64,000 nt of DNA, taken from a phage. The notes under the pieces are model-generated. The model was not told the DNA's origin. It ran no database searches and was given only the letters and a program-made list of their open reading frames with translations. A program made the position numbers and the translations under genes. The stretch is taken from sequence record PZ445498.1. One strand, 5' to 3'. Below, one piece after another: positions 10,595-55,566 of this stretch (position 1 is its first letter; every line of letters starts with the position of its first letter).

Positions 10595-10629
10595 AAGTTT
10601 CCTCCAATGGGCGTTCCACGATGAGGCTT

Positions 10630-10662
10630 GGCTCTGGGTGATTTGCCCAGAGCCTTTTTTAT
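10630..10662 (+). terminator. intrinsic terminator
   Basis: GGCTCTGGG / CCCAGAGCC 9-bp stem followed by TTTTTT. Confidence 0.75.
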
Positions 10663-10674
10663 TGGGAAAAATAA

Positions 10675-13600
10675 ATGACTGATAAGCTAATACGAGAACT
10701 ACTTATAGATGTAAAGCAGAAAGGGGCAACCCGTACTGCAAAATCTATTGAGAACGTTTCCGATGCGTTAGAAAATGCTGCTGCCGCTTCCGAACTGACT
10801 AATGAGCAGTTAGGAAAAATGCCCAAAACTCTTTACTCCATTGAGAGGGCAGCGGATAGAGCAGCTAAAAGCCTAACTAAAATGCAGGCTAGCAGAAGTA
10901 TGATGGGTATCACCAAATCTATAGATAGTATTGGTGCTAAGTTAGATGACCTTGCTATTGCTATGATTGAGGTATCCGATAAGCTAGAGTCTGGATTTAC
11001 ACATGTTGGTAAATCTGTTAAGGCGATGGGTAACGATGTAGCTGCTGCAACTGAAAAAGTTCAAGATAGATTATATGATACAAACCGTGTTTTGTCGGGT
11101 ACTACTAGAGGCTTCAATGATACTACCACATCCGCAGGTCGTGCTAGTCGTGCTCTAGGTAATACATCTGGTTCTGCACGTGGTGCTACTCGTGACTTCG
11201 CAGCAATGGCTAAAGTTGGTGGTTCTCTACCTCTTATGTATGCTGCTATTGCATCTAACGTGTTCGTTCTACAATCTGCATTCGAACAACTTAAGATGGG
11301 TGACCAGTTAAACCGTCTGGAGAAGTTCGGTACTATTGTAGGTACTCAAACAGGTACTCCGGTACAAACTCTAGCTAGATCTCTACAAGAGGCTGCTGGT
11401 TATGCAATCTCCTTCGAAGAAGCAATGAGACAGGCATCCTCTGCTTCTGCATATGGATTCGATGCTGAACAACTTAATAAATTTGGTCTAGTAGCTCGTC
11501 GTGCTGCTGCTGTTCTTGGTGTTGATATGACTGATGCACTTAACCGTGTAATCAAAGGTGTATCTAAACAAGAAATCGAACTTCTGGACGAACTTGGTGT
11601 TACTATTCGTCTTAATGATGCTTACGCTGACTACGTTAAACAGTTAAATGCTGCTAACACAGGTATCACATATAACGTCAATAGTCTTTCCACTTTCCAA
11701 AAGCAACAAGCATATGCTAACGCAGTAATTGCTGAATCTACTAAACGTTTCGGTTACTTGGATGACGTACTCCGTGCAACTCCATGGGAACAGTTTGCTG
11801 CTAACGCTGATGCTGCACTAAGAAAGGTTCAACAGGCTGCTGCTAAGTATTTAGGGCCGGTAATTGATTCTATTAACGCAGTATTCTATACTTCTCAAGC
11901 ATCTATCTCGGCTTCTGCTGCTAGAGCACAAGAAGAAACTAACCGTCAGATTGACCCAACTAACGTTGGTGCTGTAGCTTTAAGTCTTTTCGCTTCCGAG
12001 GAAGGATATAATAAAGCTCTTGATATGTATAAAGAGTCTCTGGATAAGCGTAATAAACTAAAGACTGAGTTTGATAAACGTATGTCCCAAGCAGATGCTA
12101 GTACTGCTGCCGCTATTAGATTAGTGGGTGAGGGAATGCCTGTTGGATTAGCTGCTGGGGGATTTGAAGTAGGGGGAGTGCGCATAGGTTCTTCCGAAGC
12201 TAACAAAAAGTTTGTAGAAGAAACCGCAGCTATGGGACTACAGGTAGCAAGGTTAGGTAAAGAAGTTGATGACTCTACTGAAAACCTTAATGCTTGGAAA
12301 TCTGCGTATCAAGCTGCTGGTGCTGCGGCTGCTAAGACTAATCCAGAATTTCAGAAGCAGATTAATCTGCAGAAGGATATGAATGACCCTGATGCGGTTT
12401 ATGACTTTAACTCCGCAACTCTGAAAGGACTGACGGAACAGCAGAAAGCATATGATCAGGCTAAGAAAACTGCTAGTGATTTAGCTAACGATATCCAGAA
12501 CATTGCCGAAAATACTAATACTGCGGCTAAAACTAGTGCATCCCTATCGGATACGATTAAGACTATTGAGTCTCTATCTGCCGGCACTGGTAAAAATGCT
12601 GATGAGTATGTTAAGAGTCTGAACTTAGGGTATAATACTCTTAGTGAGATGAAGACTGCCTCACAAGCTCTTGCTGGTTATGTAAAATTAATTAGTAATG
12701 AGACTAAAAATCAGTTAGAAGTTCAGCAAAAGATTGCCGAAGTGTACAACCAGACCAAGGATAAAGAGAAAGCACAGGAAGCGGGTAGACGTCTAGAAAT
12801 CCAACAGTTAGAAGAACAGGAAGCAGCTCTTAAGCGTGTCCTAGAAACTAACAAGGGTAACAAGGCAATTGAGAATGAAATAGCTAAGGTTCAGTTAGAA
12901 CGTATCAAAATTACTAACCAGGACATGGAAGCTCAGAAGAAAGTTAAGGACTATACGGATAAGATTCTTGGTGTTGATCGTGAAATAGCTCTCCTGAATA
13001 ACCGTACTATGACAGATACTCAATATCGTTTAGCTCAGTTGAACCTTGAACTGACTATCGAGAAAGAGAAGTATGTGTGGTACTCCAAGCAGATTGATAA
13101 GCAGAAGGAAGCTGAACAATCAAGACGTGCTCAGGCACAGATTGAGCGTGAAATCTGGAAAGCTAGGTTAGATAATATATCCAGAGTTGCAGCAAAAAGA
13201 CAGGAAGCATTTGAGAATACATTAACTGGCATGTACCCTCTAGCAGGGGAAATGCAAAAGATGGAAATGCAGTTAGAATTCTATAAACAAATGAAAGAGT
13301 TTACTAAAGGTAATGCGGATGAACAGATGCGATGGAATTCTGAGATATCAAAAACTCAAGCACAAATGTCCGCATTAGCAGCCCAAAGAAATGCTCAAAT
13401 GCAACAACAAGTAGGTTCATCTGTAGGAGCTACATATACACCTACAACTGGACTATCTGGAGATGACAAAGCTTTCGCGGATATGCAGAATAGAATGGCA
13501 TCCTATGACCAGGCTATCTCTAAACTATCCGAGCTGAACTCTGAAGCAACTGCAGTGGCACAAAGTATGGGTAACCTAACTAATGCTATGATTCAGTTCT

Positions 13601-20440: not shown

Positions 20441-22933
20441 TGGCACTTAAAACAAAAAATTATTGTACAGCAGATTCTTAACATAGATGATACTACAACT
20501 ACTGCTAGTAAATATCCTAAGTATACAGTAGTTTTAGGTACTTCTATTAGTTCTATTACTGCTGGTCAACTAACAGCGGCTGTTGAGGCCTCTGCTGCTT
20601 CTGCTGCGGCAGCAAAAACTTCTGAAATCAATGCAAAAACTTCTGAGACTAACGCTGAAGTTTCAGAGACTAACGCTAAAGCTTCCGAAGTAGCGGCCGC
20701 TACTTCGGCTACGAATGCTGCTACTAGCGAAACTAATGCATTAGCAAGTAAAAATGCTGCTGCTACATCACAAACAGCAGCAAAAACTAGTGAGACTAAT
20801 GCAAAAACTAGTGAGACTAATGCAAAAACTAGTGAGACTAAGGCAAAAACTAGTGAGACTAATGCAAAAACTAGTGAGACTAATGCAAAAACTAGTGAGA
20901 CTAAGGCAGCAGCATATGCAGCAGCAGCAAAAAATAGCGAGACTAATGCTGCCCTATCCGCTGCCTCTGCCTCTGAATCCAAAGGATTCAGAGATGAAGC
21001 AGAAACATTCGCTACACAAGCCTCTACATCAGCATTAGCAGCAAAAAATTCAGAAACTAATGCAAAGACTAGCGAAATTAACTCAAAAGCTAGTGAAGAC
21101 GCTGCTAAGTTAGCTCAACAAGCTGCATCAGGTAGCGCGAGTACTGCTATGCAAGCTGTGACCACAGTACAGAATCTTAAGTCCGACGTTGAGCAGTTAA
21201 AGAGCGACACGCAAACTATTAAAGACGGTGCTGTTGGAGAAATTAATACCGCTAAAACGGATGCAACAACCAGCATTACCCAGTCAAAAGACGCAGCGTT
21301 AACGGCAATAGGAAGTGCTAAATCTAGCGCGATTGGTGGTGTTAACACAGCCAAGGTTGCTGGTGTTAACGCTATTAATACTGCTAAAACTGAATCACTG
21401 AACGCAATGACACCGCTGAAAGAAGCAGCAGAAGATGCTGCGGCTTTAGCTACGCAAAAGGCTACCACAGCTACGGAACAGGCTACGTCGGCTGCTGGTA
21501 GCGCTACAACGGCAAGCGAGAAAGCTACTAACGCTACCAGTGCAGCAGATAGAGCAGAGACAGCGGCTGCATCCGCAGAACAGGTTATGCAAGCGTCTTT
21601 GAAAAAGGACCAGAACCTTAAAGACCTTACTGATAAAAGCGCGGCGCGGGCTACCTTAAACGTGCAAGGCGCAAAATGTATTACTAGCACCGCGCCGGGA
21701 GATTTCAATGCGCTATCTTCACCTGATGACAAACTAAACTTGCTGATTGCTAATAACGGCACCTGGGGTGTACAAAGCGTAGGGGGAGTTGTTAAGCCGT
21801 TAGTTATTGAACGCGGTGGCACAGGTGCAACAAACGTAAGCCAAGCAAGGAATAATCTTGGAATTGGTGAAACTGCTATACCTGTTTTTGGTGGTATTGC
21901 CCTTGATGCTAAAAATAGCACTACATCCGGTATTCTTTATTTAAGAAATAAGAATCCAGAAAGTGTTCAGATTTCATACTCAAGAATCTATAATGAAATT
22001 CAGGGTGGAGTTGCAAAGGCAACTATTCAAGTAACTAGAGAAGGTGAGGACACAAACTATTATCAGTTTGATGAAGCAGGTAACGCATTAAACTACAATA
22101 CAATAACAATAGGTAGGGGTATTGGTAATGCTCTTGGTAGTAATTCTCTTGTTATTGGTGATACTGACACTGGCTTTAAATGGGGTGGTGATGGTATTAT
22201 TCAAATTCATTGCAATAGTAGTAATATTGCTTCTTTTGATGCGAGAAATATGCACCTTAACGGACTTTTAAATATACGGCCTGTTGATAATAACGCTAAC
22301 GGCATTAGAGTTTCAGGAGCTAGAACTGGCGTCGGTAATGCGTTAATTGGTGGTTCAGTTTCTGGGGGTGCTTATATTGCATGGCGCGATAGAGCAACCG
22401 GAATACTCATAGAGGTTCCAAATCCAGATGTTGCTGTAAGCATATTCAAGGCAGTTCAATGGGGTGCTGAGTGGCTTACTGGATTTGATGTAGCAAGATA
22501 TTCATCAGGTACGACTGAATCTAGATTATTTGTTCGTGGTGCCGAATTTACATTCCACGACAATGGAATTGCATCCGCCGCTAACTGGATTAGTACTTCC
22601 GATATTAGGCTGAAGACCCAATTGAAAGAGATTAAAACGGCTAGAGAGAAGGTTAAAGCAATAAAAGGTTACACTTATTTTAAGCGTAATAATATTGATG
22701 AAGATGAACATTCTTTTTATTCTGAAGAAGCTGGTGTAATAGCTCAAGATGTGCAAACCGTTTTGCCCGAGGCTGTCTATAAGATATCTAATAGTGAATA
22801 TTTAGGTGTAAGCTATAGTGGCGTTACTGCTCTCCTAGTTAATGCTTTTAATGAACTCAATGAAGTTGTTGAAAAGCAACAGCAAGAAATTGATGAGCTC
22901 AAAGAATTGGTAAAACAGTTACTTGATAAATAA
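20441..22933 (+). CDS. L-shaped tail fibre protein (pb1-like) with C-terminal intramolecular chaperone domain; apparent frameshift near N-terminus
   Basis: Frame open from 20441 to 22933 (about 830 codons) with no start codon until 21149; ATG at 20440 is in the +1 frame and stops after 13 codons; heptad KTSETNA repeats; C-terminal SDIRLKTQ...autoproteolytic chaperone-like region. Confidence 0.75.
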   Translation, partial: WHLKQKIIVQQILNIDDTTTTASKYPKYTVVLGTSISSITAGQLTAAVEASAASAAAAKTSEINAKTSETNAEVSETNAKASEVAAATSATNAATSETNALASKNAAATSQTAAKTSETNAKTSETNAKTSETKAKTSETNAKTSETNAKTSETKAAAYAAAAKNSETNAALSAASASESKGFRDEAETFATQASTSALAAKNSETNAKTSEINSKASEDAAKLAQQAASGSASTAMQAVTTVQNLKSDVEQLKSDTQTIKDGAVGEINTAKTDATTSITQSKDAALTAIGSAKSSAIGGVNTAKVAGVNAINTAKTESLNAMTPLKEAAEDAAALATQKATTATEQATSAAGSATTASEKATNATSAADRAETAAASAEQVMQASLKKDQNLKDLTDKSAARATLNVQGAKCITSTAPGDFNALSSPDDKLNLLIANNGTWGVQSVGGVVKPLVIERGGTGATNVSQARNNLGIGETAIPVFGGIALDAKNSTTSGILYLRNKNPESVQISYSRIYNEIQGGVAKATIQVTREGEDTNYYQFDEAGNALNYNTITIGRGIGNALGSNSLVIGDTDTGFKWGGDGIIQIHCNSSNIASFDARNMHLNGLLNIRPVDNNANGIRVSGARTGVGNALIGGSVSGGAYIAWRDRATGILIEVPNPDVAVSIFKAVQWGAEWLTGFDVARYSSGTTESRLFVRGAEFTFHDNGIASAANWISTSDIRLKTQLKEIKTAREKVKAIKGYTYFKRNNIDEDEHSFYSEEAGVIAQDVQTVLPEAVYKISNSEYLGVSYSGVTALLVNAFNELNEVVEKQQQEIDELKELVKQLLDK
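20779..20904 (+). repeat. six tandem 21-bp repeats (GCAAAAACTAGTGAGACTAAT/G) encoding KTSETNA heptads
   Basis: Six near-perfect tandem copies read directly from sequence; degenerate copies extend upstream from about 20610. Confidence 0.9.
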
Positions 22934-44856: not shown

Positions 44857-45252
44857 TCAATCATCATTTAGACCTGGGACATAGATCCCAATGCGATTTA
44901 ATTGACCTTTAGCTTCTTCGAGAATATCTTCGGTGTACTCCCAAATATCATCTTCTACTTGCAAAAGATAAGGGGATTCACCAGTTTCGGGGTCACGTGT
45001 AATGGCTAAGCCACGTGAATGGAATATAGAGAAGTTGAGGGCAACAATCAAGCCCATGCTGGACAATTCATTCCAGTCAGCTTCCCAACCATCATCTTCA
45101 TCTTCGTCCACAAATACACCTACACTAGGGTCTGTTACAGAAGTAAACGGAAATGTTACACTAACCTTGTCAACCCCCAACCAACGTGCAAGGAGCCCCT
45201 CAGCACGCTCTACCAAACTAGGATCTATCTGACGCCAAAATACTTGTTCCAT
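44857..45252 (-). CDS. hypothetical protein (tandem paralog A)
   Basis: 131 aa; shares W.EL..MGL..ALN...F....TGE.P......D.W.Y..E.....L.R.G...PGL pattern with the adjacent gene. Confidence 0.45.
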   Translation of the reverse strand: MEQVFWRQIDPSLVERAEGLLARWLGVDKVSVTFPFTSVTDPSVGVFVDEDEDDGWEADWNELSSMGLIVALNFSIFHSRGLAITRDPETGESPYLLQVEDDIWEYTEDILEEAKGQLNRIGIYVPGLNDD

Positions 45253-45261
45253 TCTGCCTCC

Positions 45262-45690
45262 TTAAGCAGTTAAACCTGGGATCATATACCCGAAACGACG
45301 AAGTTTCTGAATCCCCTCATTTACTTCCTCGGGCGAATATGACCAGCCATCACGTTCATTTACCTGGAAAGCAGGAGCTTCACCAGTGCGATAATTTACA
45401 ATAAGACGGTGATTTGCAGGCATAAACAGCTTATGATTCAAGGCAAAAACCAGACCCATTTCATCGAGTTCTTTCCAGTCTACAATCTCTTCTACTCCCT
45501 CCCCTAAATCCACGCTAACTCCAATACACGGAGCTTCCTCTAGCGGGCCTTTAAAGGATAAGAAGATATCGTTATTCTCACACCAAATCTTGAGCAGATT
45601 GATGGTTTCATTATACATACCATTAGGGAGAGAGCGCCAGAAGTTGAGAAGCATAGGATTTACCTCTTTCATGAAAATATTATTGAACAT
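45262..45690 (-). CDS. hypothetical protein (tandem paralog B)
   Basis: 142 aa; paralogous to 44857-45252. Confidence 0.45.
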   Translation of the reverse strand: MFNNIFMKEVNPMLLNFWRSLPNGMYNETINLLKIWCENNDIFLSFKGPLEEAPCIGVSVDLGEGVEEIVDWKELDEMGLVFALNHKLFMPANHRLIVNYRTGEAPAFQVNERDGWSYSPEEVNEGIQKLRRFGYMIPGLTA

Positions 45691-45692
45691 GC

Positions 45693-46232
45693 TTATACCT
45701 TAAGTTTCTGAAGAGCCTTACACATTTCAAGATTTGGACTAAACTCCAGCATATAGCTGATAGCGTTTAAATCTTGAAGGTTTATTCCAGTCCTGCCGTT
45801 TACAATAACAGAAGGAAATTGATACATCATAGCACCAGCATCATCTAGGACACACCAATGCTTGAGCTTATATTTTTCTACAAAACGTAAAACAGAATTA
45901 CCCCGAGATAAACCACCTCCAGTAAAGTCTGTTGTACCAAGAAAACGATCGATCAAACCGAGTCCGGTCATAATCTGAACGTTCTCCATTTCATTTCGTA
46001 CAGAAAACCATGAAGATACCCCAACAATCATTATTGGGGGTGGCTTAAGAAAGTTCTGAAAAGCCTGGAGTAATGGCTTGTAAACCCAATCACCACCAAA
46101 GAATAGCTTCTCACTATCTGGAGCATGATGGTGAGAGATGCTCGAATTGAGCACCCCATCAATATCCAGGAAAATCACAGGAGTATTACTTATTTCCACC
46201 AGTAGCATCCCACGTCCAGACTTTAACTTCAT
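45693..46232 (-). CDS. HAD-superfamily phosphatase-like protein
   Basis: Motif I FLDIDGVLN (DxDG[TV]); start probably at an internal Met. Confidence 0.5.
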   Translation of the reverse strand: MKLKSGRGMLLVEISNTPVIFLDIDGVLNSSISHHHAPDSEKLFFGGDWVYKPLLQAFQNFLKPPPIMIVGVSSWFSVRNEMENVQIMTGLGLIDRFLGTTDFTGGGLSRGNSVLRFVEKYKLKHWCVLDDAGAMMYQFPSVIVNGRTGINLQDLNAISYMLEFSPNLEMCKALQKLKV

Positions 46233-46371: not shown

Positions 46372-46534
46372 ATTCTCCCTCCTTAATAAGGAACTCTTTC
46401 CATTCTGCTGTATCCTCATAGATAACGCAGAAATCATCACTCTTCCATGAGAAGTCATCAGTAGCAAATTCGAAACGGTAGCACCAACTACCATCTGGCC
46501 ATATTAAAAGATCACACATGCTTTTCTGGGACAT
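46352..46534 (-). CDS. small hypothetical protein
   Basis: 60 aa from ATG 46534 with GGAGGGA Shine-Dalgarno. Confidence 0.35.
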   Translation of the reverse strand: MSQKSMCDLLIWPDGSWCYRFEFATDDFSWKSDDFCVIYEDTAEWKEFLIKEGEYGEEDF

Positions 46535-47363
46535 AAATATTTCCCTCCATAAAAGCTTCAACTTGATCAATAAAGTGTTTATTACCAAAAACTTCGGCAG
46601 CTCCAGCACGCCATACAGTAACACCACGTTTCTCATACTCAAGCTGTTCGTCATAACGAACTTGTGGGTTAACAACCATCATCTTAGTTCCACGACATAC
46701 AGCAGGAAATAATTCCCAGTTGAAGTTGATAACTTGGTTACTACAACCCACCACAATAACCATGTCATTGCTAGTAAGAGTATCAAACAGGTTGATTTGA
46801 CCCATGTACCACGGAGCTGTCTCACCAAAGAACACCACGTTTGGTTTTACCCATTCGTAATCTTCAGGGGCAATCGCAGTATACCCAACATCTTCGATGA
46901 TTTGATTGCGACCCTGACGATAGATCACCTCTTTCAAGTACCCGTGAGCGTGAATTATTTCATCACGAGGGATACCAGCACGTTCCAGAAGGTCATCAAC
47001 GTTAGTAGTGAAGTTCTTCACGCTATCCGCACCATAACGCTGGAACCATTCTGCAATTCGCAGATGGGCAATGTTAGGCTCAACAGTCTGTAGTTCCTGA
47101 CGACGCATGTTGTAGAACTCATGAGTCTTGAGATACAGATCGTTACCATCTTCATCAATGCCAGGGAAACGAGCACTGAAGTAGTTAGGATCATCTTCAC
47201 CACAGAAGCGACGGAAGCCAGCTTCAAAGTTAGGCAAGCTACATACTTCCTCTAGATCGTACTCATCCCACAAGGATTTCCCACTAGCAGTATCAGTACG
47301 GAAAGCACGAACACCACTATCTACACTCAAACCTGCACCACTAACAACGATTAGTCTACGCAT
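46512..47363 (-). CDS. Sir2-family (sirtuin-like) NAD-dependent protein, lacking zinc-ribbon cysteines
   Basis: 283 aa; sirtuin motifs GAGLSVDSGVRAFR, TTNVDDLLERAG, HAHG, VVFFGE and VVGCS align with bacterial CobB; no Cys-x2-Cys pairs between HG and VVFFGE. Confidence 0.75.
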   Translation of the reverse strand: MRRLIVVSGAGLSVDSGVRAFRTDTASGKSLWDEYDLEEVCSLPNFEAGFRRFCGEDDPNYFSARFPGIDEDGNDLYLKTHEFYNMRRQELQTVEPNIAHLRIAEWFQRYGADSVKNFTTNVDDLLERAGIPRDEIIHAHGYLKEVIYRQGRNQIIEDVGYTAIAPEDYEWVKPNVVFFGETAPWYMGQINLFDTLTSNDMVIVVGCSNQVINFNWELFPAVCRGTKMMVVNPQVRYDEQLEYEKRGVTVWRAGAAEVFGNKHFIDQVEAFMEGNIYVPEKHV

Positions 47364-47557
47364 TATACGATTCCTTGCTTGAATCCTTCGATGATATTTT
47401 GGAGCAGAATTGCTTCTTCTGGGCGAACCTTCTCTTGCTTAATAAGCATATCCAAACCAGCAATACAGGTAGCTACTCCAGCATTATACCCAGCATTCCA
47501 CTGCTCCATAAGCATATTTTCTAAATTACTTTTTAGATTCTGATTCAAGAAGTCCAT
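47363..47557 (-). CDS. hypothetical protein
   Basis: 64 aa from internal ATG with GGAGGA Shine-Dalgarno. Confidence 0.3.
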   Translation of the reverse strand: MDFLNQNLKSNLENMLMEQWNAGYNAGVATCIAGLDMLIKQEKVRPEEAILLQNIIEGFKQGIV

Positions 47558-47729
47558 AAAGTTTTTCCTCCAATTCCATAATACGATTTTCGTAAGAAGC
47601 ACGCAGCTTCTCGATGGACAAAGCACGAACTGTAACTTCATCTGAATTGATCGCTAGCTGAGCTAGATCTTCTGTTTCCATACGTCCGTTGTAAATTAAG
47701 CGATATTTAAGATGTTTTACGTTTTTCAT
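47526..47729 (-). CDS. hypothetical protein
   Basis: 67-aa ORF. Confidence 0.3.
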   Translation of the reverse strand: MKNVKHLKYRLIYNGRMETEDLAQLAINSDEVTVRALSIEKLRASYENRIMELEEKLYGLLESESKK

Positions 47730-47738
47730 TCTTGTTCC

Positions 47739-48020
47739 TTAGTTCTGTACTGTAAATTCATTCTTATCACAGTGAGCATAATAATACCCATACATACGAT
47801 AAATTTTCACAGCCTTAGTAGACCCCTTCGATTCTTCATAATCAATCCAGAGCCACTTGTCTTTACCTACATAATGTACCCGAAACTTCTTAACTTTCTT
47901 ATCATTCCATGTTGCAACAACACGACGATAATCAAATCCGCCCAACCAATCTAGAGCCTTACGTTCTTCACTAGGCTCTCCAAGATAGGAAACATCTACT
48001 TTCGGAAGCAATTCGCTCAT
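47739..48020 (-). CDS. hypothetical protein
   Basis: 93-aa ORF downstream of promoter 48049-48077. Confidence 0.4.
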   Translation of the reverse strand: MSELLPKVDVSYLGEPSEERKALDWLGGFDYRRVVATWNDKKVKKFRVHYVGKDKWLWIDYEESKGSTKAVKIYRMYGYYYAHCDKNEFTVQN

Positions 48021-48048
48021 AGCTTTCTCCTCTCAAATTTATAAATCA

Positions 48049-48085: not shown

Positions 48086-48118
48086 AAAGCCAGATCGACT
48101 AGCGACCTGGCTGATTCA
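48086..48118 (-). terminator. intrinsic terminator after nrdD
   Basis: AGCCAG...CTGGCT hairpin followed by TTTTATTTTATTT on the minus strand. Confidence 0.6.
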
Positions 48119-49993
48119 TTATTTAGCTCTTACATCTGCATGCTTGATTCGTCCCATAACCTCATGCTGTTTACCTGGGTTAAATGGGCGTGCACCTGGA
48201 TTACCAAGGTACCCACAAACACGACGTGTTACCTCAAGAGTCTCAGGATCATGGTTGCCACAAATTGGGCATTTAAATCCATCTTCAGAAGCAATTGTTT
48301 CGCCTAAGAATCCACACTCACCACAAGAATCAACTGGAGTATTAATACCAAAGTAGTGAACTTTACTTGCAGCATAGTTAATTACCCATTCTAGGGCATC
48401 TGGGAATTTCTTCATGTCAGGTAATTCCACGTAGGAAATGCACCCACCAGAAGCAATAGGAGTAAAGTTAGACTCATAATCAAATTTCACATTTGGAGCA
48501 ACCTTACGTTCTACATCAAGGTGATGGGAGTTAGTGTAATATCCTTTAGCCAGAATATCCTCATGCTCTGGGAAGTACTCACGGTCTAGACGACAGAAGC
48601 GATCACACAGAGATTCAGATGGTGTAGCATACAGACTATAACCTAACTGAGTCTCTTCCTTCTTCTGATCAGCACGATCACGCATATATTGTAGCACACG
48701 TTGAACGAACTTGATACAAGACTCAGACATTGTATCTACATCTTTACCAAACATGAGCTGCAACATTTCGTGGCAACCAATATATCCTAGAGATACGGAA
48801 GCACGCTTGTAGAAATGATCAAATACATATTCATCTGGCCCCAGACGTAATCCAAAGGCTCCTGACATATAGAGGATGGGCGCAGCTTTAGCTTGAATGT
48901 ATTTTAAGCGATCAACCCTCCACTCCAATGCTTTTAACGCGGTATCCACACGCAGCTCAAGCAGATCGAAGAATAGATCAATATTTCCTTCCGCTTCGAT
49001 AGCGATTCGAGGAAGGTTTACGGAAACAACGCCTAAGTTGTTACGACCAGAAGTTTCACCATCTTCCGCAGCAGCCAGGAATGAACGACAGCCCATAGAG
49101 ACTTTGTAGTCTCCCGTAACTTCTACAACCTTATCATAACTGATGTAGTCAGGATACATACGTTCAGCAGTACATTTCATAGCTAACTTCTTGATATCAT
49201 AGTTAACATCACCAGGTTTCATGTTTACGCCATCACGCAAAACAAATACCAGTTTAGGGAAGATAGCTGTACGTTTATTGATACCCAAACCATCCATACG
49301 CACTTCTAGGATTGCTTTCTGTACAAGACGTGCTTCCCAAGAAGTTCCTAGACCAAACCCAAAGGTAATAAACGGACTTTGACCATTAGAGTTGAACATC
49401 GTATTGATTTCATACTCCAGGCCCTGACAGGCATCGTAAACTTCTTTCTCAGTCATTTCCGTAGCCATTACAGATGCTTTGGCTTCATCCTTAGTCCAAC
49501 GTTTTGCAAACGCATGATTCTTATCATAAGACTTACGAACATAAGGAGCCAGTACTTCATCTAATCGGTCTACAGAAGTACCACCATATTGATGGGAGCT
49601 AACCTGAGTAATAATCTGAGCTGTAATAGCAGCCGCAGTAGTAATGGAGTTTGGCGTACTGATTTCAGCATTACCAACCTTCATACCGTTTTTCAACATA
49701 TCTTCCAAAGCAACCAGGCAACAGTTAGTCATACCTAATGCAGCGTAATCAGCATCATGGAAGTGAATATCACCAATCATGTGAGCATTTCGAATCTGGA
49801 TTGGCATTTCTTCCAGAATCAGATATTTACTCAATTCCCCTGCAAGCATATCCCTTTGTGTAGGGAAACGTTCTGAGGGCTTATTGGCATTATTAAACAG
49901 CAGCTCTTCATCTGCTGAACCTTCGATAATTTCTTTGCAGTTTCGAATTAAGGACTGCATTCCTTTATATTTTAGTTCTTCATTGCGATTCAT
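48119..49993 (-). CDS. nrdD: anaerobic ribonucleoside-triphosphate reductase (class III)
   Basis: 624 aa; C-terminal glycyl-radical motif RVCGYLG preceded by a Cys cluster (CGECG...CPICG). Confidence 0.85.
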   Translation of the reverse strand: MNRNEELKYKGMQSLIRNCKEIIEGSADEELLFNNANKPSERFPTQRDMLAGELSKYLILEEMPIQIRNAHMIGDIHFHDADYAALGMTNCCLVALEDMLKNGMKVGNAEISTPNSITTAAAITAQIITQVSSHQYGGTSVDRLDEVLAPYVRKSYDKNHAFAKRWTKDEAKASVMATEMTEKEVYDACQGLEYEINTMFNSNGQSPFITFGFGLGTSWEARLVQKAILEVRMDGLGINKRTAIFPKLVFVLRDGVNMKPGDVNYDIKKLAMKCTAERMYPDYISYDKVVEVTGDYKVSMGCRSFLAAAEDGETSGRNNLGVVSVNLPRIAIEAEGNIDLFFDLLELRVDTALKALEWRVDRLKYIQAKAAPILYMSGAFGLRLGPDEYVFDHFYKRASVSLGYIGCHEMLQLMFGKDVDTMSESCIKFVQRVLQYMRDRADQKKEETQLGYSLYATPSESLCDRFCRLDREYFPEHEDILAKGYYTNSHHLDVERKVAPNVKFDYESNFTPIASGGCISYVELPDMKKFPDALEWVINYAASKVHYFGINTPVDSCGECGFLGETIASEDGFKCPICGNHDPETLEVTRRVCGYLGNPGARPFNPGKQHEVMGRIKHADVRAK

Positions 49994-50020
49994 TATACCC
50001 TCCTTCTCTAACTAAGACTA

Positions 50021-50049
50021 CTATTATAACTCATTAGAAGGCGGATGTC
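50021..50049 (-). promoter_or_regulatory. consensus sigma70 promoter for nrdD
   Basis: Reverse complement TTGACA-N17-TATAAT; AGGAGG Shine-Dalgarno before the ATG. Confidence 0.7.
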
Positions 50050-50102
50050 AACAATATTTTACTATAAAGTTCTGTAACATGATCTGAGTCAAAAAATTTT
50101 AT

Positions 50103-50131
50103 TTGCCAACCTCTATTAAAAATAGTATAAT
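50103..50131 (+). promoter_or_regulatory. sigma70-type promoter (distal, divergent from nrdD)
   Basis: TTGCCA-N17-TATAAT. Confidence 0.5.
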
Positions 50132-50271: not shown

Positions 50272-50345
50272 TATATTTGTAAGTTGATAAACAAGATCTT
50301 TTTGTTGATCCTCTGTTAGCGAAGTACACTATAGGAGTGTTATTT

Positions 50346-51098
50346 ATGGGAAAAGCACGTCAAAAAAGAGAGAACCGCAATGGTTCAAGAAAGCGTGGCA
50401 ACAAGTATGAGAGTAACGTAATTCAAGCAGATTTCTCTGGTGATTACGCCAATCCAGTTGCTAAATCCCTAGTTGGTAAAAACCGTGAGCAAAAATCATA
50501 TATCAATATGATCAAGAACAACACAGTGACTGTGGGTATTGGTGAACCAGGTACTGGTAAAACCTTTATTCCGTCCGTTCTTGCAGCTCAGGAACTCGTA
50601 GACATTCACTCAGATATTGAGCAAGTGATCCTCGTGCGTCCGAACGAACCTCTAGGTAAATCTCTTGGTATGCTCCCAGGTGATCTGGCAGAAAAGCTAG
50701 AGCCTTGGTTGGAACCAATAGCCGATGGCATGAAATGGTCAATCGGTGATCACGCCTACAAAGGATATGTCGAACGTCAGAAAATTAAATTCCTGGCTAT
50801 CGAACATGCCCGTGGCCGAACTTTCAACAACTCCTATGTAATTGTCGATGAAGCTCAGAATATCTCCGTTGAAGCAATGATCTGTCTCTTGACTCGTGTA
50901 GGACAAGATTGTCGTTTAATTATCTGTGGGGATATAGCTCAGAAAGACATCAAGGGTGATTCAGGTCTAGCACTTCTTATGGAAGTCTATGAGAAGTACG
51001 AAAACTCTCCTTTCTCTATGATCGAACTGATCGACAACGTTCGCTCACCAGAGTCTAAAGCATTCTACGATATCTTTAAGGATATGGGGAAGGTGTAA
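50346..51098 (+). CDS. phoH: PhoH-like ATPase
   Basis: Walker A GEPGTGKT and Walker B VIVDEAQN; start at ATG 50346 with AGGAG Shine-Dalgarno. Confidence 0.8.
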   Translation: MGKARQKRENRNGSRKRGNKYESNVIQADFSGDYANPVAKSLVGKNREQKSYINMIKNNTVTVGIGEPGTGKTFIPSVLAAQELVDIHSDIEQVILVRPNEPLGKSLGMLPGDLAEKLEPWLEPIADGMKWSIGDHAYKGYVERQKIKFLAIEHARGRTFNNSYVIVDEAQNISVEAMICLLTRVGQDCRLIICGDIAQKDIKGDSGLALLMEVYEKYENSPFSMIELIDNVRSPESKAFYDIFKDMGKV

Positions 51099-51398: not shown

Positions 51399-51427
51399 TT
51401 GCAAAATGACTCAAAACAAAGTAGAAT
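51399..51427 (+). promoter_or_regulatory. early promoter upstream of nrdA
   Basis: TTGCAA-N17-TAGAAT; the ORF-track start at 51406 falls inside this promoter. Confidence 0.55.
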
Positions 51428-51465
51428 ATCTCCTAAATCCTGATAACTACAAAAAGGAAAGCCAA

Positions 51466-53799
51466 ATGAGCCATCGTATAGAAAAAGTAATTAAACGTGA
51501 CGGTACTGTTCAGGACTTTGCTCCTGAAAAACTCAATGATTGGGCTGCATGGGCATGTAAAGATACTGACGTAAGTTGGTCTGCCGTAGTTATGGCTGCC
51601 CTGAAAAATCTACCCAAAGGTGTTGTAGACTCCGATACACTCCAAGATGTGTTAATTAAAGCCGCTGAAGGTCTTATAAAAGACAATCCAGCATATGATA
51701 CTGTAGCAAAGGAATTACGTCTTGCGCAGATGCGTAAACGCCTATATGATTCCTTCGAACCACCTTCTCTGCGTTTCTTCCACGATCATATGGTTCGTGT
51801 TGGCGCTTGGGAAGACATGAGTGCATGGATTAGCGATGATCAGTTTGATGCTCTGAATCAAGTTATTGATCATGATCGCGATCGTTTATTCACTAGTGGT
51901 GGACTGAAACAGTTCTTCGACAAGTATTCCCGTCGTAATATTGCAACTGGTGAAATTTATGAAACTCCGCAGTTTGCCTACATGGGTATGGCAATGGCGA
52001 TGTTATCTCAACCTAACTGGACAATTCTAGATGCAATCGACCTCTACAATGCAATGTCGCTCCACAAAATCAACGTTCCTACGCCGCCACTGGTTGGTCT
52101 GCGCTCTAGTGACCGTGGATTTGCTAGTTGCTGCCTCGTGGATTCCACTGACACGCTGGATTCAATCGACACAGCCGAGCACATCGTCTTCAAAATGGTC
52201 GCAGCCAGAGCGGGAATCGGGTATCATCTTGAAAGCCGATCAATTGCTGATCCGGTGCGAAATGGGGCATTCCCGCATTCCGGAAAACTGCCATATTATC
52301 GACACATTGACCGATCAGTAAAAGCTAACACTCAGCAAACCCGTGGCGGTTCTGCTACTGTGTCTTATCCATACTTCGATCCTGAAATCATTCAGTTGAT
52401 GCAGGTTAAGCAGCAACGTGCTACAGACGAGAATAAAATCGATAAGATGGATTACTCTCTGAGCTTTAACAACCTTCTATTAAAACGTTACCTGAAAAAC
52501 GAAGATATTACGCTAATGTCCTACTTCTACGCACCAGAAGTTCATGAAGCGTTTTATGGCGAAGATGAGGCTAAGTTTGAAGAAATCTACGTGGCAGCGG
52601 AGAAACGTGTGGCTTCTCTTACAAAGATCGACCACGAAGGAAAAACAATTCCAGCAGCTCCTAGAATCTCTGCAAAAGAAATCCTAGATACTTGGTTACG
52701 TATCCGTATGGAAACAGGGCGTATGTATGCTCATCACATTGGTGAATCTAACCGTCATGGTAACTTCCTTGACCCGATTCGTATGACCAACCTATGTGTT
52801 GAAATTACTCAGCCAACCAGGCCATTCCATCACATTACGGAGCTGTATAAGACCCAAGATCAGTTAGATGATATGCGTCCAGAAGATATTGGCGAAGTAT
52901 CTCTGTGTAACTTAGGTGGAGTTGTACTAGGACGCATGGAATCTCTGGCTGAATGGGAAAAAACTTGCTACATTCTTCTGAAATTCGTTGATACCATCAT
53001 TGAAATTCAGGACTATCCGTTCCCTACTATGGAATACACGGCTAAGAAGCGTCGTAACGTAGGTATTGGTCTGATGAACGCAGCAGGTGCAATGGCAGCA
53101 GAAGGTCTGGCTTACGAAGGTGAAGAAGCCCGTAACTGGATTCACCGTGAAGCTGAGAAACTTTCTTACTTCCTGCATAAAGCCTCTGTACGTCTGGCTA
53201 AAGAACAAGGTGCATGTGACTGGTTTAATCGTACTAAACCATCCAAGGGGACTCTGGTAATCGACACGTATAAGAAAACTGTTGATGAACTGGTAACTGT
53301 AGATCTAGAAATGGATTGGGAATCTCTGCGTGCAGATATTCTGAAATATGGTATGCGTAACTCTGTTCTGACTGCTCAGATGCCCGGTGAAAGTTCCTCT
53401 GTACTGCTAGGTGTTACTAACTCTATCGAACCGCCTCGTAAGATTGTATCTATCAAGGGTAGTGCAGTGAATAAAGTAATTGCAATTGCTCCAGGTGCAA
53501 CTGATTGGGATACATTAATGAGTTATAAACTGGCTTATGATGTAGATCGTATCGAGTGGGTCAAATGGGTAGCAACCATGCAGAAATTCTTCAGTCAGTC
53601 TATAAGTACGAATATGTACTATGACTACACCAAGTTTGAGAATGAAATTATTCCTGGCCCAGTAGTAGTTCGTGATTTCATGACTGCTGTTAAGTACGGT
53701 TGGAAAACTTTCTACTATGCAAACTTTAACACCGAGAATGGTGGTGGTGCAGGGGAAGAAACTGCTGCTGGATGCGCATCTGGTGGTTGTCAATTATAA
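51466..53799 (+). CDS. nrdA: ribonucleoside-diphosphate reductase, large subunit (class Ia)
   Basis: ATP-cone-like N-terminus, catalytic Cys-containing core, C-terminal Cys pair (CASGGCQL); start at ATG 51466 (MSHRIEKV) after AAGGAAA. Confidence 0.9.
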   Translation: MSHRIEKVIKRDGTVQDFAPEKLNDWAAWACKDTDVSWSAVVMAALKNLPKGVVDSDTLQDVLIKAAEGLIKDNPAYDTVAKELRLAQMRKRLYDSFEPPSLRFFHDHMVRVGAWEDMSAWISDDQFDALNQVIDHDRDRLFTSGGLKQFFDKYSRRNIATGEIYETPQFAYMGMAMAMLSQPNWTILDAIDLYNAMSLHKINVPTPPLVGLRSSDRGFASCCLVDSTDTLDSIDTAEHIVFKMVAARAGIGYHLESRSIADPVRNGAFPHSGKLPYYRHIDRSVKANTQQTRGGSATVSYPYFDPEIIQLMQVKQQRATDENKIDKMDYSLSFNNLLLKRYLKNEDITLMSYFYAPEVHEAFYGEDEAKFEEIYVAAEKRVASLTKIDHEGKTIPAAPRISAKEILDTWLRIRMETGRMYAHHIGESNRHGNFLDPIRMTNLCVEITQPTRPFHHITELYKTQDQLDDMRPEDIGEVSLCNLGGVVLGRMESLAEWEKTCYILLKFVDTIIEIQDYPFPTMEYTAKKRRNVGIGLMNAAGAMAAEGLAYEGEEARNWIHREAEKLSYFLHKASVRLAKEQGACDWFNRTKPSKGTLVIDTYKKTVDELVTVDLEMDWESLRADILKYGMRNSVLTAQMPGESSSVLLGVTNSIEPPRKIVSIKGSAVNKVIAIAPGATDWDTLMSYKLAYDVDRIEWVKWVATMQKFFSQSISTNMYYDYTKFENEIIPGPVVVRDFMTAVKYGWKTFYYANFNTENGGGAGEETAAGCASGGCQL

Positions 53800-53898: not shown

Positions 53899-54417
53899 GT
53901 GAAACCTCAACTAACAAAAGAATTTCTAGAGAAATATCTAGAACTCAGAGAAGATACTCTCTATTGGAAGCCAAGAGAGACTAATAAAGGTGGATTTAAT
54001 ACTAGATTTGCTGGAAAACCTGTAGGAGCCGTCAATGGAAATGGCTACCTATGCTTCCGACTTAACGTGGAAGGTTATAGATGGGAATTAAGAAATCATG
54101 TAGTAATCTTCTGTCTCTATTATGGATATTACCCAACTAAGACAGTAGACCATAAAGATACAAATAAACTTAATAACCATCCTTTAAATCTACGAGAATC
54201 AACCGATGCTGGTAATGCCCAAAATAGGGGAGCCGGTAAAAACAATACCCATGGACATAAAAACCTAGAGCCTCTTAGTTCAGGAAACTGGAGGGTTAGG
54301 ATAACACACAACGGTACTGTTTACAGATCTTCCGCAATGCCTCTAGAAAAAGCTCTAGAACATAGAGATATTAAACTTAAAGAATTTCATGGCGAATACG
54401 CTAATAATGGAGAATAA
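53899..54417 (+). CDS. HNH homing endonuclease inserted between nrdA and nrdB
   Basis: 172 aa, GTG start after AGGAG; motif GYRWELRNHVVIFCLYYGYYPTKTVDHKDTNKLNNHPLNLR typical of HNH_3-type homing endonucleases. Confidence 0.7.
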   Translation: MKPQLTKEFLEKYLELREDTLYWKPRETNKGGFNTRFAGKPVGAVNGNGYLCFRLNVEGYRWELRNHVVIFCLYYGYYPTKTVDHKDTNKLNNHPLNLRESTDAGNAQNRGAGKNNTHGHKNLEPLSSGNWRVRITHNGTVYRSSAMPLEKALEHRDIKLKEFHGEYANNGE

Positions 54418-54420: not shown

Positions 54421-55566
54421 ATGACAACCTTACTAAATCTGAACTGGAATCCTGATTCTGAAGAGCTATTTCTCGGAGATGCCCTGGGAGTAGCAGACTA
54501 TGTTCGTGTTGCTCATCCAGAGCTAGAACGACTCGCACTATTACAGAGGAGCCAGTTTTGGACTGAAACTGAAATCAGTCTAGAAAGTGACAAAAAGCAA
54601 TGGCCTAATCTTCCAAGAGAAATACAAGAAATCACTCTGCTGAACTTAGCTTGGCAGGTTCAAACAGATTCTTTCATTAGTCGTGCTCCTGAGGCAGCTA
54701 TTATGCCACTTGTAAGCCGTCCTGAATTGGAAGGTATGCTCAAGCAGTGGAGCTACTTCGAAGATCTGCATAGCCGTGCATATAGTAACATTATTCGTAA
54801 CGTTCTGACTGATCCAGCAGAATTTATTGATTCTGTAACTAAAAACCAAGAAGCATTTGCACGTATCGCAGATTCTGTTGAACTGTTTGATGAATTGTAT
54901 CTGTTAGGCCAGTATTTCCTTGCAGTACGTGATCATCGTGGTGATAATACTTATCCAGAAACTGAGTTCCCTGAAGTTAAACGTGAAACTCAGGCTAAAC
55001 TGTTAGACGCTTACTTTGCAATCTACGGTCTGGAAGCAATGCAGTTCTACGCATCCTTTGCATGTACCTTTGCTCTAGCAGAGAACGATATTCTGCAAGG
55101 TATTGCTAAGAACCTGCAATTAATCGCTAAAGATGAAGCTCTACATACTCAAATGTCTAAAGCTATCATCCAGATTATGTTCCAGCAGTTTGATAAAGAT
55201 CTGGTAGATGAAGCATTAGCTAAAGCACCAACACAACTCCTAAAAACTCTGAAAACTGAGATTGAATGGGGTCACTTTATCTTTAAAGGCCGTAGTCTGA
55301 TTGGTTTGAACGCAGAACTGCTTGAAGAATACCTTTACTTTGTAGGACGTAACGCATTTATGCACATTGGTGTAGAATGGCCAAGCCACTTACCTGTAAT
55401 TACTAAGAACCCTATTCCGTGGATTATGAACTGGCTGGATACTACTTCCTTACAGCCTGCCCCACAAGAAATCCAGATTGGTGCAGCATATCGTGTGGGT
55501 CAGGTAACTGAAACTTCTGCTGATACCCTGAAAGATCTGGGTAACGAATTTGAGGGCATGTTCTAA
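54421..55566 (+). CDS. nrdB: ribonucleoside-diphosphate reductase, small subunit
   Basis: 381 aa; di-iron ligand motifs (E..H) and FYASF radical-site region. Confidence 0.85.
   Translation: MTTLLNLNWNPDSEELFLGDALGVADYVRVAHPELERLALLQRSQFWTETEISLESDKKQWPNLPREIQEITLLNLAWQVQTDSFISRAPEAAIMPLVSRPELEGMLKQWSYFEDLHSRAYSNIIRNVLTDPAEFIDSVTKNQEAFARIADSVELFDELYLLGQYFLAVRDHRGDNTYPETEFPEVKRETQAKLLDAYFAIYGLEAMQFYASFACTFALAENDILQGIAKNLQLIAKDEALHTQMSKAIIQIMFQQFDKDLVDEALAKAPTQLLKTLKTEIEWGHFIFKGRSLIGLNAELLEEYLYFVGRNAFMHIGVEWPSHLPVITKNPIPWIMNWLDTTSLQPAPQEIQIGAAYRVGQVTETSADTLKDLGNEFEGMF

What the first reader, a model, noticed from the sequence alone, without database searches (positions are those of the whole stretch)
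48119..49993. Class III ribonucleotide reductase NrdD with no activase gene visible
nrdD is clearly present (glycyl radical motif RVCGYLG) and carries the best consensus promoter in the window (TTGACA-N17-TATAAT, AGGAGG). No radical-SAM activase (Cys-x3-Cys-x2-Cys NrdG-like) is found among neighbouring ORFs, which are small proteins without Cys clusters. The phage enzyme may depend on the host activase, or the activase lies outside the window. The phage also encodes aerobic NrdAB.
Basis: partly seen in the sequence, partly recalled or inferred. Interest (0 to 1): 0.4.

Follow-up and report, generated by a model that had tools for sequence, protein, structure and literature searches.

The report
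T5-like phage NrdD lacking its activase
This T5-like phage carries an intact, strongly expressed anaerobic ribonucleotide reductase gene but no gene for the enzyme that switches it on, so it most likely borrows the host's activase; the gene arrangement was already reported for T5-like phages in 2013.

Summary
Window 48119-49993 (-) encodes a complete class III ribonucleotide reductase catalytic subunit, NrdD. It has every catalytic and radical-site residue, the only perfect sigma-70 consensus promoter in the window, an AGGAGG ribosome-binding site and an intrinsic terminator.

The window is from a T5-like phage (Demerecviridae, Epseptimavirus), about 97% identical to phages BD13 and SuperGirl. 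No NrdG-type radical-SAM activase is present:
- in any frame of the window;
- in the complete genomes of those two relatives;
- within about 10 kb of nrdD in 39 T5-clade viral contigs.

In contrast, 31 of 42 more distant phage nrdD loci have nrdG just downstream. So "the activase lies outside the window" is very unlikely.

The orphan gene is functional by evolutionary criteria. dN/dS is 0.02-0.05, and the perfect promoter is conserved across genera. Its activase-facing C-terminal domain is more host-like than that of T4, which encodes its own NrdG.

The best explanation is activation by pre-existing host NrdG in anaerobic cells. This is inferred, not shown.

The nrdD-without-nrdG arrangement in T5, EPS7 and SPC35 was published in 2013 (Dwivedi et al.), so the finding is ordinary and already known.

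The parts
48119..49993 (-). nrdD: class III (anaerobic) ribonucleoside-triphosphate reductase catalytic subunit, 624 aa, without an ATP-cone. Key residues: C91; M300 and C302 (in MGCRSF); N318/N319; zinc-site Cys 557, 560, 575 and 578; radical Gly594 in RVCGYLG.
50023..50051 (-). Perfect sigma-70 consensus promoter TTGACA-N17-TATAAT, 29 nt upstream of the nrdD start codon (T5 early-promoter type).
   Evidence: the only perfect match in the window; a perfect promoter is also upstream of nrdD in T5, BD13, Proteus phage Stubb and Klebsiella phage Shiner, with diverged spacers
49999..50004 (-). Shine-Dalgarno sequence AGGAGG, 5 nt before the ATG at 49993.
48088..48112 (-). Intrinsic-terminator-like hairpin (10 pairs, 6 of them G-C) followed by TTTATTTTAT. 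It starts 6 nt after the nrdD stop codon, so nrdD looks like a single-gene transcription unit.
   Evidence: the alignment to BD13 resumes at window 48024, so the hairpin is retained there
47739..48020 (-). 93-aa ORF of unknown function (phrog_7953) directly downstream of nrdD. It was tested as a possible NrdG relic and rejected.
47363..47729 (-). Two further small ORFs of unknown function (67 aa, phrog_5236; about 65 aa, phrog_5827). Together with the 93-aa ORF they form an indel (47365-48023) that is absent from phage BD13, so they are not obligatory partners of NrdD.
46512..47363 (-). Sir2-like protein, the next conserved gene downstream of nrdD in T5-like phages. It is not an activase.
50103..50131 (+). 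Divergent near-consensus promoter (TTGCCA-N17-TATAAT, 11 of 12) facing phoH and nrdAB.
50337..51098 (+). phoH-like ATPase, the first gene of the divergent rightward unit.
51406..53799 (+). nrdA: class Ia reductase large subunit, with an ATP-cone.
54421..55566 (+). nrdB: class Ia reductase small subunit.

Best explanation
The gene is a functional class III ribonucleotide reductase catalytic subunit of the formate-dependent E. coli/T4 type, without an ATP-cone. It belongs to a T5-like phage.

Proposed mechanism:
1. Host RNA polymerase transcribes nrdD early, as a single-gene unit, from a perfect sigma-70 promoter.
2. The protein is inert until a glycyl radical is placed on Gly594.
3. The phage encodes no activase. 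The radical is therefore installed by host NrdG, the radical-SAM enzyme that uses S-adenosylmethionine and reduced flavodoxin. NrdG is already present in cells that were growing anaerobically when infected.
4. NrdG acts catalytically and the radical lasts many turnovers. The phage therefore only needs to supply the abundant, rate-limiting catalytic subunit. Lacking an ATP-cone, that subunit should escape dATP feedback inhibition.
5. This sustains dNTP supply for phage DNA synthesis in anoxic gut-like conditions. NrdAB does the same job in air.

Shown here: gene integrity, promoter and terminator, absence of an activase gene, purifying selection, and the clade-wide orphan state. Inferred: activation by host NrdG, formate as reductant, and the physiological role.
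For: Integrity of the gene:
- It passes all family models and conserves the radical Gly, both active-site Cys, the Met and Asn, and the four zinc-site Cys.

Absence of an activase:
- No CX3CX2C motif in any frame of the window.
- An NrdG HMM finds nothing in the window or in whole SuperGirl and BD13. The control sequences T4 and Dax NrdG, which were also used to build the HMM, score 1e-84 and 1e-89.
- 0 of 39 viral contigs with NrdD at least 60% identical have nrdG within about 10 kb. Among contigs at 57% identity or less, 31 of 42 have it, always 0-4 kb downstream on the same strand.
- Record counts in the phage collection agree. Salmonella phages: 397 records with NrdD against 126 with NrdG, a gap of 271; 275 Salmonella records are T5-like. 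Escherichia phages: 1055 against 928, a gap of 127; 131 are T5-like.

The orphan gene is under selection:
- dN/dS is 0.02-0.05 at dS 0.2-1.0.
- A perfect TTGACA-N17-TATAAT is kept upstream of nrdD in Epseptimavirus, T5, Novosibvirus and Sugarlandvirus although the spacers differ.
- No downstream neighbour is conserved across genera.

Compatibility with the host activase:
- The C-terminal zinc plus glycyl-radical domain has been conjectured to contact NrdG (PMC4493059).
- In that domain all four T5-like lineages are 64% identical to E. coli NrdD, against 53% in the core.
- T4, which has its own NrdG, shows the reverse: 48% against 60%.
- At sites where E. coli agrees with only one of the two phage proteins, it sides with the T5-like protein 14:3 in the C-terminal domain. 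In the core the count is 63:97 (Fisher p = 0.0013).

Other support:
- E. coli K-12 carries nrdG next to nrdD.
- Close relatives also encode a GrcA-like glycyl-radical protein with no activase. That is a second protein that would need a host activase.
- The literature says the glycyl radical survives many cycles (PMC4493059) and that phages often carry only the rate-limiting steps of a pathway (PMC3653736).
Against: - No experiment shows that host NrdG activates a T5-like NrdD.
- From my memory of Young et al. 1994 (PMID 7961708, not held in the library), T4 NrdD expressed in E. coli needed T4 gene 55.9 (nrdG). If so, cross-activation by host NrdG is not automatic.
- The C-terminal domain is generally the better-conserved part of NrdD. 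Dax, which has its own NrdG, is 77% identical to E. coli there. The domain pattern therefore shows compatibility with host NrdG, not dependence on it, and it rests on one orphan lineage and one comparator (T4).
- T5-type phages degrade host DNA early (textbook knowledge, not tested here). Only NrdG made before infection would then be available.
- The true remainder of this phage's genome is not available; the best database match is about 97.5% identical.
Confidence: 0.75

Rival explanations
1. The activase gene exists but lies in the part of this phage's genome outside the 64-kb window.
For: The window covers only about 58% of a 110-120 kb genome, running from the terminase gene to just before the tRNA region. 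The exact source genome is not in the phage collection.
Against: The complete genomes of SuperGirl and BD13, about 97% identical to the window, have no NrdG HMM hit. Per-genus record counts imply that essentially all T5-like Salmonella and Escherichia phages lack NrdG. Where phages do have nrdG, it sits 0-4 kb downstream of nrdD. Dwivedi et al. 2013 also list T5, EPS7 and SPC35 among phages with class I and III genes, and state that many phages have only nrdD with nrdAB (PMC3653736).
Confidence: 0.02
2. A phage-encoded activator that is not a recognisable NrdG or radical-SAM protein, one of the many hypothetical proteins, generates the glycyl radical.
For: More than half of the T5-like genes have no known function. 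A small CX3CX2C-containing protein lies next to the GrcA-like gene in relatives.
Against: - Every glycyl-radical-enzyme activase characterised so far is a radical-SAM enzyme with a CX3CX2C cluster (general knowledge).
- The 99-aa CX3CX2C protein (phrog_4499) has no Pfam or NCBIfam match. At 99 aa it is shorter than NrdG (154 aa), the small end of known activases. Its homologs occur in Rhizobium, Psychrobacter, Acinetobacter and Erwinia phages.
- The genes next to nrdD differ between genera, and an indel removes three of them in BD13.
- The weak NrdG-like match in the 93-aa neighbour is not conserved within its own family, and hhalign gives probability 0.1%.
Confidence: 0.04
3. Another host glycyl-radical activase, for example PflA, activates the phage NrdD instead of NrdG.
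For: Enteric hosts carry several such activases. Relatives of this phage also encode a GrcA-like protein whose natural activase would be PflA.
Against: The radical loop TRRVCGYLG matches E. coli NrdD exactly in the RRVCGYLG stretch. The zinc domain typical of NrdD is retained. Activases are generally specific for their own enzyme (general knowledge). This was not tested here.
Confidence: 0.06
4. The orphan nrdD is a decaying or non-catalytic remnant that is never activated.
For: - Dwivedi et al. 2013 stated that it was unknown whether incomplete RNR gene suites in phages are functional (PMC3653736).
- The reference T5 sequence has an in-frame 50-codon deletion that removes the conserved RASVSLGYIG segment.
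- One viral contig has a disrupted ORF at the same place.
Against: - dN/dS is 0.02-0.05 over dS up to about 1.
- All catalytic, zinc-site and radical-site residues are invariant across lineages that are only 60% identical.
- The perfect promoter is conserved across genera.
- 37 of the 39 T5-clade viral contigs carry a full-length ORF.
Confidence: 0.04

Closest known systems
Bacteriophage T4 NrdD/NrdG (class III RNR; solved structures 1H78, 1H79 and related)
   Same: A phage-encoded NrdD without an ATP-cone. It is about 50% identical and has the same active-site Cys/Met/Asn, C-terminal zinc ribbon and glycyl radical loop. It sits alongside phage class Ia NrdAB.
   Different: T4 encodes its own activase NrdG about 0.6 kb downstream of nrdD and has a group I intron in nrdD. 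The T5-like phage has neither. T4's C-terminal domain is less host-like than that of the T5-like protein: 48% against 64% identity to E. coli NrdD.
E. coli / Salmonella NrdDG operon
   Same: 52-54% identity over the catalytic core and 64% in the C-terminal domain. The RRVCGYLG radical loop is identical.
   Different: The host NrdD has an N-terminal ATP-cone of about 95 aa and is co-transcribed with nrdG. The phage gene lacks both and has its own consensus sigma-70 promoter and terminator.
nrdD-only RNR gene sets of T5, EPS7 and SPC35 as catalogued by Dwivedi et al. 2013 (PMC3653736)
   Same: Identical arrangement: nrdD, then a divergent promoter region, then phoH, a small ORF, nrdA and nrdB, with no nrdG. 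The window is a member of this group.
   Different: Nothing material. This window adds an HNH endonuclease between nrdA and nrdB and a three-ORF indel downstream of nrdD.
Vibrio-infecting Demerecviridae (Thalassavirus, e.g. phage Dax)
   Same: The same phage family, with nrdD beside the replication-origin-binding protein gene.
   Different: Dax NrdD is 724 aa with an ATP-cone. It is closer to E. coli NrdD (57%) than to the T5-like NrdD (52%). An NrdG homolog (gp77, 57% identical to E. coli NrdG, with CX3CX2C present) lies three genes downstream. This looks like an independent acquisition.
Autonomous glycyl radical cofactor GrcA/YfiD and its T4 homolog Y06I
   Same: A precedent (from memory: Wagner et al. 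2001) for a phage-encoded glycyl-radical protein that is activated by a host activase, PflA. Relatives of this phage carry such a GrcA-like gene.
   Different: It is a different enzyme family and a different activase, and in relatives the gene lies outside the region this window covers.

Membership tests
Class III RNR catalytic subunit NrdD | Sequence match above curated thresholds to NrdD family models | tested here: met
   Pfam NRDD 574 bits (cutoff 26.2) and Gly_radical 81 bits. NCBIfam NF006732 840 bits (cutoff 657) and TIGR02487 589 bits (cutoff 326).
Class III RNR catalytic subunit NrdD | C-terminal glycyl radical motif RVCGYLG with the radical glycine | tested here: met
   Residues 591-597, G594. 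Invariant across window, Stubb, Shiner, phA11, Dax and E. coli.
Class III RNR catalytic subunit NrdD | Active-site cysteines and Asn of the E. coli/T4 formate-type enzyme (T4 C79, C290, N311; Met preceding the Cys) | tested here: met
   C91 (TNCCLV), M300 and C302 (MGCRSF) and N318/N319 (GRNNLG) are aligned and invariant. Assignment to the formate type rests on homology and remembered literature.
Class III RNR catalytic subunit NrdD | C-terminal four-cysteine zinc site | tested here: met
   C557, C560, C575 and C578 are invariant.
Class III RNR catalytic subunit NrdD | N-terminal ATP-cone (present in most but not all NrdD proteins; not strictly defining) | tested here: not met
   No ATP-cone Pfam hit in NrdD, whereas NrdA has one. 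The alignment starts at E. coli residue 113, as for T4 NrdD.
Class III RNR catalytic subunit NrdD | Ribonucleotide reduction dependent on a glycyl radical | not testable with these tools
   Only indirect evidence: dN/dS 0.02-0.05.
Complete class III RNR system (NrdD plus cognate NrdG encoded together) | A radical-SAM activase NrdG (CX3CX2C, about 150-190 aa) encoded in the same genome, usually adjacent | tested here: not met
   No CX3CX2C motif in the window. No NrdG HMM hit in the window, in whole SuperGirl or in whole BD13. 0 of 39 T5-clade loci have one within about 10 kb.
NrdG (tested for the 93-aa ORF 47739-48020) | Profile-level homology to NrdG and the cysteine cluster | tested here: not met
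   Best HMM hit is E 0.16 over 24 residues. The matched motif is not conserved in the ORF's own family. hhalign probability is 0.1%. The protein has one Cys only.
Strong sigma-70 (T5 early-type) promoter | Consensus -35 and -10 hexamers with 17-nt spacing upstream of the gene, conserved in relatives | tested here: met
   12 of 12 match, unique in the window. Conserved in T5, BD13, Stubb and Shiner. Actual transcription was not tested.

The most novel reading that the evidence does not exclude
The T5-like NrdD may not be activated by host NrdG. Instead an unrecognised phage-encoded factor, not a canonical radical-SAM protein and hidden among the hypothetical genes, would generate the glycyl radical. 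Alternatively the protein could have a conserved role that does not need the radical. Either would be a new way of generating or using a glycyl-radical enzyme.
Probability: 0.04. Interest if true: 0.8.

Novelty: already known. Interest (0 to 1): 0.22.

Why it matters
If host NrdG does activate the phage enzyme, T5-like phages split a two-component radical enzyme system between virus and host. The virus supplies the abundant catalytic subunit, which lacks the feedback-sensing domain. The host supplies the catalytic activase, its iron-sulfur cluster assembly and its reductant.

This predicts that anaerobic replication of these widely used therapeutic and biocontrol phages depends on host nrdG but not on host nrdD. 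That would be a concrete, testable host-dependency factor in the gut.

It is a modest point. The gene arrangement has been in the literature since 2013, and the explanation is the obvious one.

Tried and rejected
1. NrdG relic. The best, non-significant NrdG HMM hit fell on the 93-aa ORF directly downstream of nrdD (VGKDKWLWIDY against NrdG PGKDIWVWTGY). I rejected it for four reasons:
- the motif is replaced by RKGFGHVTIDY in the ORF's own homologs;
- hhalign gives probability 0.1% and E 0.5;
- the ORF lies in an indel that is absent from BD13;
- it has no Pfam or NCBIfam match.

2. Mini-activase. A 99-aa protein with a CX3CX2C motif lies next to the GrcA-like gene in BD13 and SuperGirl. I rejected it for these reasons:
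- it has no Pfam or NCBIfam hit;
- it belongs to phrog_4499, of unknown function;
- homologs occur in phages of Rhizobium, Psychrobacter, Acinetobacter and Erwinia.
The other CX3CX2C occurrences lie in short stop-to-stop segments of 28-134 aa or in a small zinc-ribbon protein (DUF7695).

3. Finding the exact source genome so that its remainder could be scanned. The best record is only about 97.5% identical.

4. Literature on cross-activation of phage NrdD by host NrdG. Young 1994 and Torrents 2001 are not held. Phrase searches found nothing relevant.

5. An Rfam scan of the whole window gave no hits.

6. dS is saturated for the 60-73% identical lineages, so dN/dS is informative only within the groups that are at least 92% identical.
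Full report
**What the window is.** The 6 kb around the finding is 98% identical to Escherichia phage SuperGirl. It matches 555 phage records, mostly T5-like phages of Salmonella, Escherichia and Klebsiella. Aligned over its whole length, the window is 96.5% identical to SuperGirl and 97.2% identical to Salmonella phage BD13. Both belong to Demerecviridae, Markadamsvirinae, Epseptimavirus. The window runs from the terminase large subunit gene through the structural and replication genes to just before the tRNA region. That is roughly 58% of a genome of 110-120 kb. The exact source genome is not in the phage collection; the best record is about 97.5% identical.

**Checking the observation.**
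- The ORF at 48119-49993 (-) encodes 624 aa.
- It matches Pfam NRDD (4.6e-172) and Gly_radical (8.1e-23).
- It passes two NCBIfam equivalog cutoffs: NF006732 at 840 bits against 657, and TIGR02487 at 589 bits against 326.
- It is 54% identical to E. coli NrdD and matches the solved T4 NrdD at E 5.9e-175.
- In a multiple alignment the functional residues are all present and invariant. These are C91, M300 and C302, N318/N319, the four zinc-site cysteines (557, 560, 575, 578) and Gly594 within RVCGYLG.
- The protein lacks the N-terminal ATP-cone of the host enzyme, as T4 NrdD does.
- The promoter TTGACA-N17-TATAAT at 50051-50023 (-) is a 12-of-12 match and the only perfect one in 64 kb; 0.12 are expected by chance.
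- AGGAGG sits 5 nt before the ATG.
- A terminator-like hairpin with a T-run begins 6 nt after the stop codon, so nrdD looks like a single-gene unit.
- NrdA (with an ATP-cone) and NrdB are on the divergent arm after phoH.

**Is an activase really absent?**
- *In the window.* No Cys-x3-Cys-x2-Cys motif occurs in any of the six frames. I built an HMM from the NrdG proteins of E. coli, T4 and Vibrio phage Dax. It found nothing significant in the window.
- *In complete genomes of close relatives.* The same HMM found nothing in the complete SuperGirl genome or the complete BD13 genome, whose NrdD is 100% identical in protein. The two phage NrdG proteins used as controls scored 1e-84 and 1e-89; they were also training sequences.
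- *Around nrdD in other phages.* I collected 81 nrdD loci from viral contigs, with up to 10 kb of flank on each side. All 39 loci whose NrdD is at least 60% identical to this one lack nrdG. Of the 42 at 57% identity or less, 31 have nrdG, always on the same strand and 0-4 kb downstream. Six of the 11 exceptions have less than 3 kb of downstream flank.
- *In record counts.* The phage collection tells the same story. Salmonella phages: 397 records with NrdD against 126 with NrdG, and 275 records are T5-like. Escherichia phages: 1055 against 928, and 131 are T5-like.

It cannot be formally excluded for this exact phage.

**Two leads that failed.**
- *The 93-aa ORF.* The top NrdG HMM hit, though not significant (E 0.16), was the 93-aa ORF immediately downstream of nrdD. 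That is where nrdG sits in other phages. The matched motif is not conserved in that ORF's own small family. Profile-profile comparison gives probability 0.1%. The ORF also lies in a 659-bp indel with two other small ORFs that BD13 lacks entirely.
- *The 99-aa protein.* A 99-aa protein with a CX3CX2C motif lies next to a GrcA-like gene in relatives, outside the region this window covers. It has no family annotation beyond phrog_4499. Its homologs occur in phages of Rhizobium, Psychrobacter, Acinetobacter and Erwinia.

Neither protein is an activase candidate.

**Is the orphan gene functional?**
- dN/dS between the window's nrdD and relatives is 0.02-0.05 at dS 0.2-1.0.
- The T5-like NrdD proteins of Epseptimavirus/Tequintavirus, Novosibvirus (Proteus phage Stubb, 73%), Sugarlandvirus (Klebsiella phage Shiner, 62%) and a second Markadamsvirinae allele (phA11, 60%) are closer to each other than to any outgroup, which are at most 54% identical. 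They share the synteny nrdB-nrdA-phoH, then the divergent promoter region, then nrdD. None has nrdG nearby.
- A perfect TTGACA-N17-TATAAT sits 22-29 nt upstream of nrdD in T5, BD13, Stubb and Shiner even though the spacers have diverged.
- The genes downstream of nrdD are not conserved between genera. There is thus no hidden conserved partner next to it.

The orphan state is therefore old, stable and under selection. That argues against a decaying remnant.

**How it most likely works.** The radical must come from somewhere, and every enteric host carries nrdG beside nrdD (for E. coli K-12). Aurelius et al. describe the glycyl radical as stable for dozens of cycles. They conjecture that the zinc domain contacts NrdG (PMC4493059).

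I compared that C-terminal domain (69 residues) with the catalytic core:
- All four T5-like lineages are 64% identical to E. coli NrdD in the C-terminal domain, against 52-53% in the core.
- T4, which brings its own NrdG, is 48% identical there, against 60% in the core.
- At sites where E. coli agrees with only one of the two phage proteins, it sides with the T5-like protein 14:3 in the C-terminal domain. In the core the count is 63:97 (Fisher p = 0.0013).

This fits a protein constrained to remain a substrate of the host activase. The evidence is not specific, however. Dax, which has its own NrdG, is 77% identical to E. coli in this domain, and only one orphan lineage and one comparator are available.

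Close relatives also encode a 122-aa GrcA-like glycyl-radical protein with no activase. This is a second case where a host activase, there PflA, would be needed. From memory, the T4 homolog Y06I behaves this way.

My model is as follows. The phage makes large amounts of NrdD that lacks the ATP-cone and so should escape dATP feedback. It makes this from an early sigma-70 promoter. In cells that were already anaerobic, pre-existing host NrdG, flavodoxin and S-adenosylmethionine install the radical, and formate serves as reductant.

The main counter-argument, again from memory, is that T4 NrdD needed T4 NrdG when expressed in E. coli (Young et al. 1994; not held). Cross-activation therefore has to be shown experimentally.

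**Comparison with what is known, and novelty.** Dwivedi et al. [quoted passage not shown] They describe the phoH-containing RNR region of SPC35, EPS7 and T5. They add that it was unknown whether incomplete gene suites are functional, and that phages often carry only rate-limiting steps (PMC3653736). The gene is routinely annotated in hundreds of T5-like genomes.

Within Demerecviridae, the Vibrio-infecting Thalassavirus phage Dax has a host-like NrdD with an ATP-cone plus an NrdG three genes downstream. That is apparently a separate acquisition.

The finding is thus a correct reading of an already documented arrangement. What this analysis adds is evidence that the orphan gene is under strong purifying selection, that its perfect promoter is conserved, that the orphan state is clade-wide, and that the activase-facing domain is host-like. 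I found no paper in the held library that tests or explicitly proposes host-NrdG dependence. The experiment is easy and still open, but the expected answer is unsurprising.

**Verdict.**
- Observation: confirmed.
- Interpretation: partly supported. Host dependence is likely; an activase outside the window is very unlikely.
- Novelty: already known.
- Interest: low to moderate.

Noticed in passing
L018 (phage T5 reference, 121750 bp) 10001-11725; corresponds to window nrdD codons 388-437: The reference T5 NrdD carries an in-frame 150-bp deletion. The window sequence has TGATCA at both breakpoints, which suggests deletion between short repeats. The deletion removes the conserved RASVSLGYIG segment and probably inactivates the enzyme. 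Four records fall in the matching 80-90% identity band. This would fit relaxed selection in aerobic laboratory culture.
   Followed up: partly
L023 (IMGVR_UViG_2974674535, 120120 bp) about 11194-11290: A 97-bp inverted duplication of adjacent nrdD sequence is inserted at the same spot as the T5 deletion and truncates the ORF to 440 aa. It could be an assembly artefact or a recombination or endonuclease hotspot around the SLGYIG-coding region.
   Followed up: partly
window 53899-54417 (+): A free-standing HNH_3 homing endonuclease (172 aa, GTG start) lies between nrdA and nrdB. The segment 53877-54411 is absent from both BD13 and SuperGirl. The same insertion site is described for T5 and AKFV33 in PMC3326045.
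   Followed up: partly
window 47365-48023 (-): A 659-bp indel carries three small ORFs of unknown function (93, 67 and about 65 aa; phrogs 7953, 5236 and 5827). It is present in SuperGirl. In BD13 it is replaced by one unrelated 72-aa ORF.
   Followed up: yes
outside the window; BD13 92826-93194 (L028 42826-43194) and SuperGirl 78319-78687: A 122-aa GrcA/YfiD-like autonomous glycyl-radical protein (RVSGYAV motif; Pfam Gly_radical 4.6e-18; GrcA models at about 118 bits, below their cutoffs). It is a second glycyl-radical protein in these phages with no phage activase. It might help keep host pyruvate formate-lyase active and so maintain formate supply for NrdD; that is speculation.
   Followed up: partly
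BD13 93276-93575 (L028 43276-43575): A 99-aa basic protein with PCICSCWMCGNPRK (which contains CX3CX2C), assigned to phrog_4499. It is widespread in unrelated phages, including Erwinia, Rhizobium, Psychrobacter and Vibrio phages. It is probably a small metal-binding protein of unknown function.
   Followed up: partly
L032 (Salmonella phage phA11), L042-L047, L054: Markadamsvirinae carry two deeply diverged nrdD alleles, about 97% and about 60% identical in protein to the window. The second is closer to the Klebsiella Sugarlandvirus gene (72%). This indicates allele replacement by recombination, and both alleles lack nrdG.
   Followed up: partly
L056, L057 (76-77 kb contigs), L061, L071: Other phage lineages have nrdD 52-55% identical to this one and no nrdG within their flanks (about 10 kb downstream, 6.8 kb for L071). 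Orphan nrdD is therefore not unique to T5-like phages.
   Followed up: no
window 20629-22900: The lateral tail fibre region is the only long stretch of the window that does not align, or aligns at only 89%, to both BD13 and SuperGirl. It is probably a host-range cassette.
   Followed up: no
window 44857-46232 (-): Two tandem paralogous DUF7415 proteins (131 and 142 aa) and a HAD_SAK_2 domain protein (179 aa) lie between the Sir2-like gene and the replication-origin-binding protein gene. Their function is unknown.
   Followed up: no
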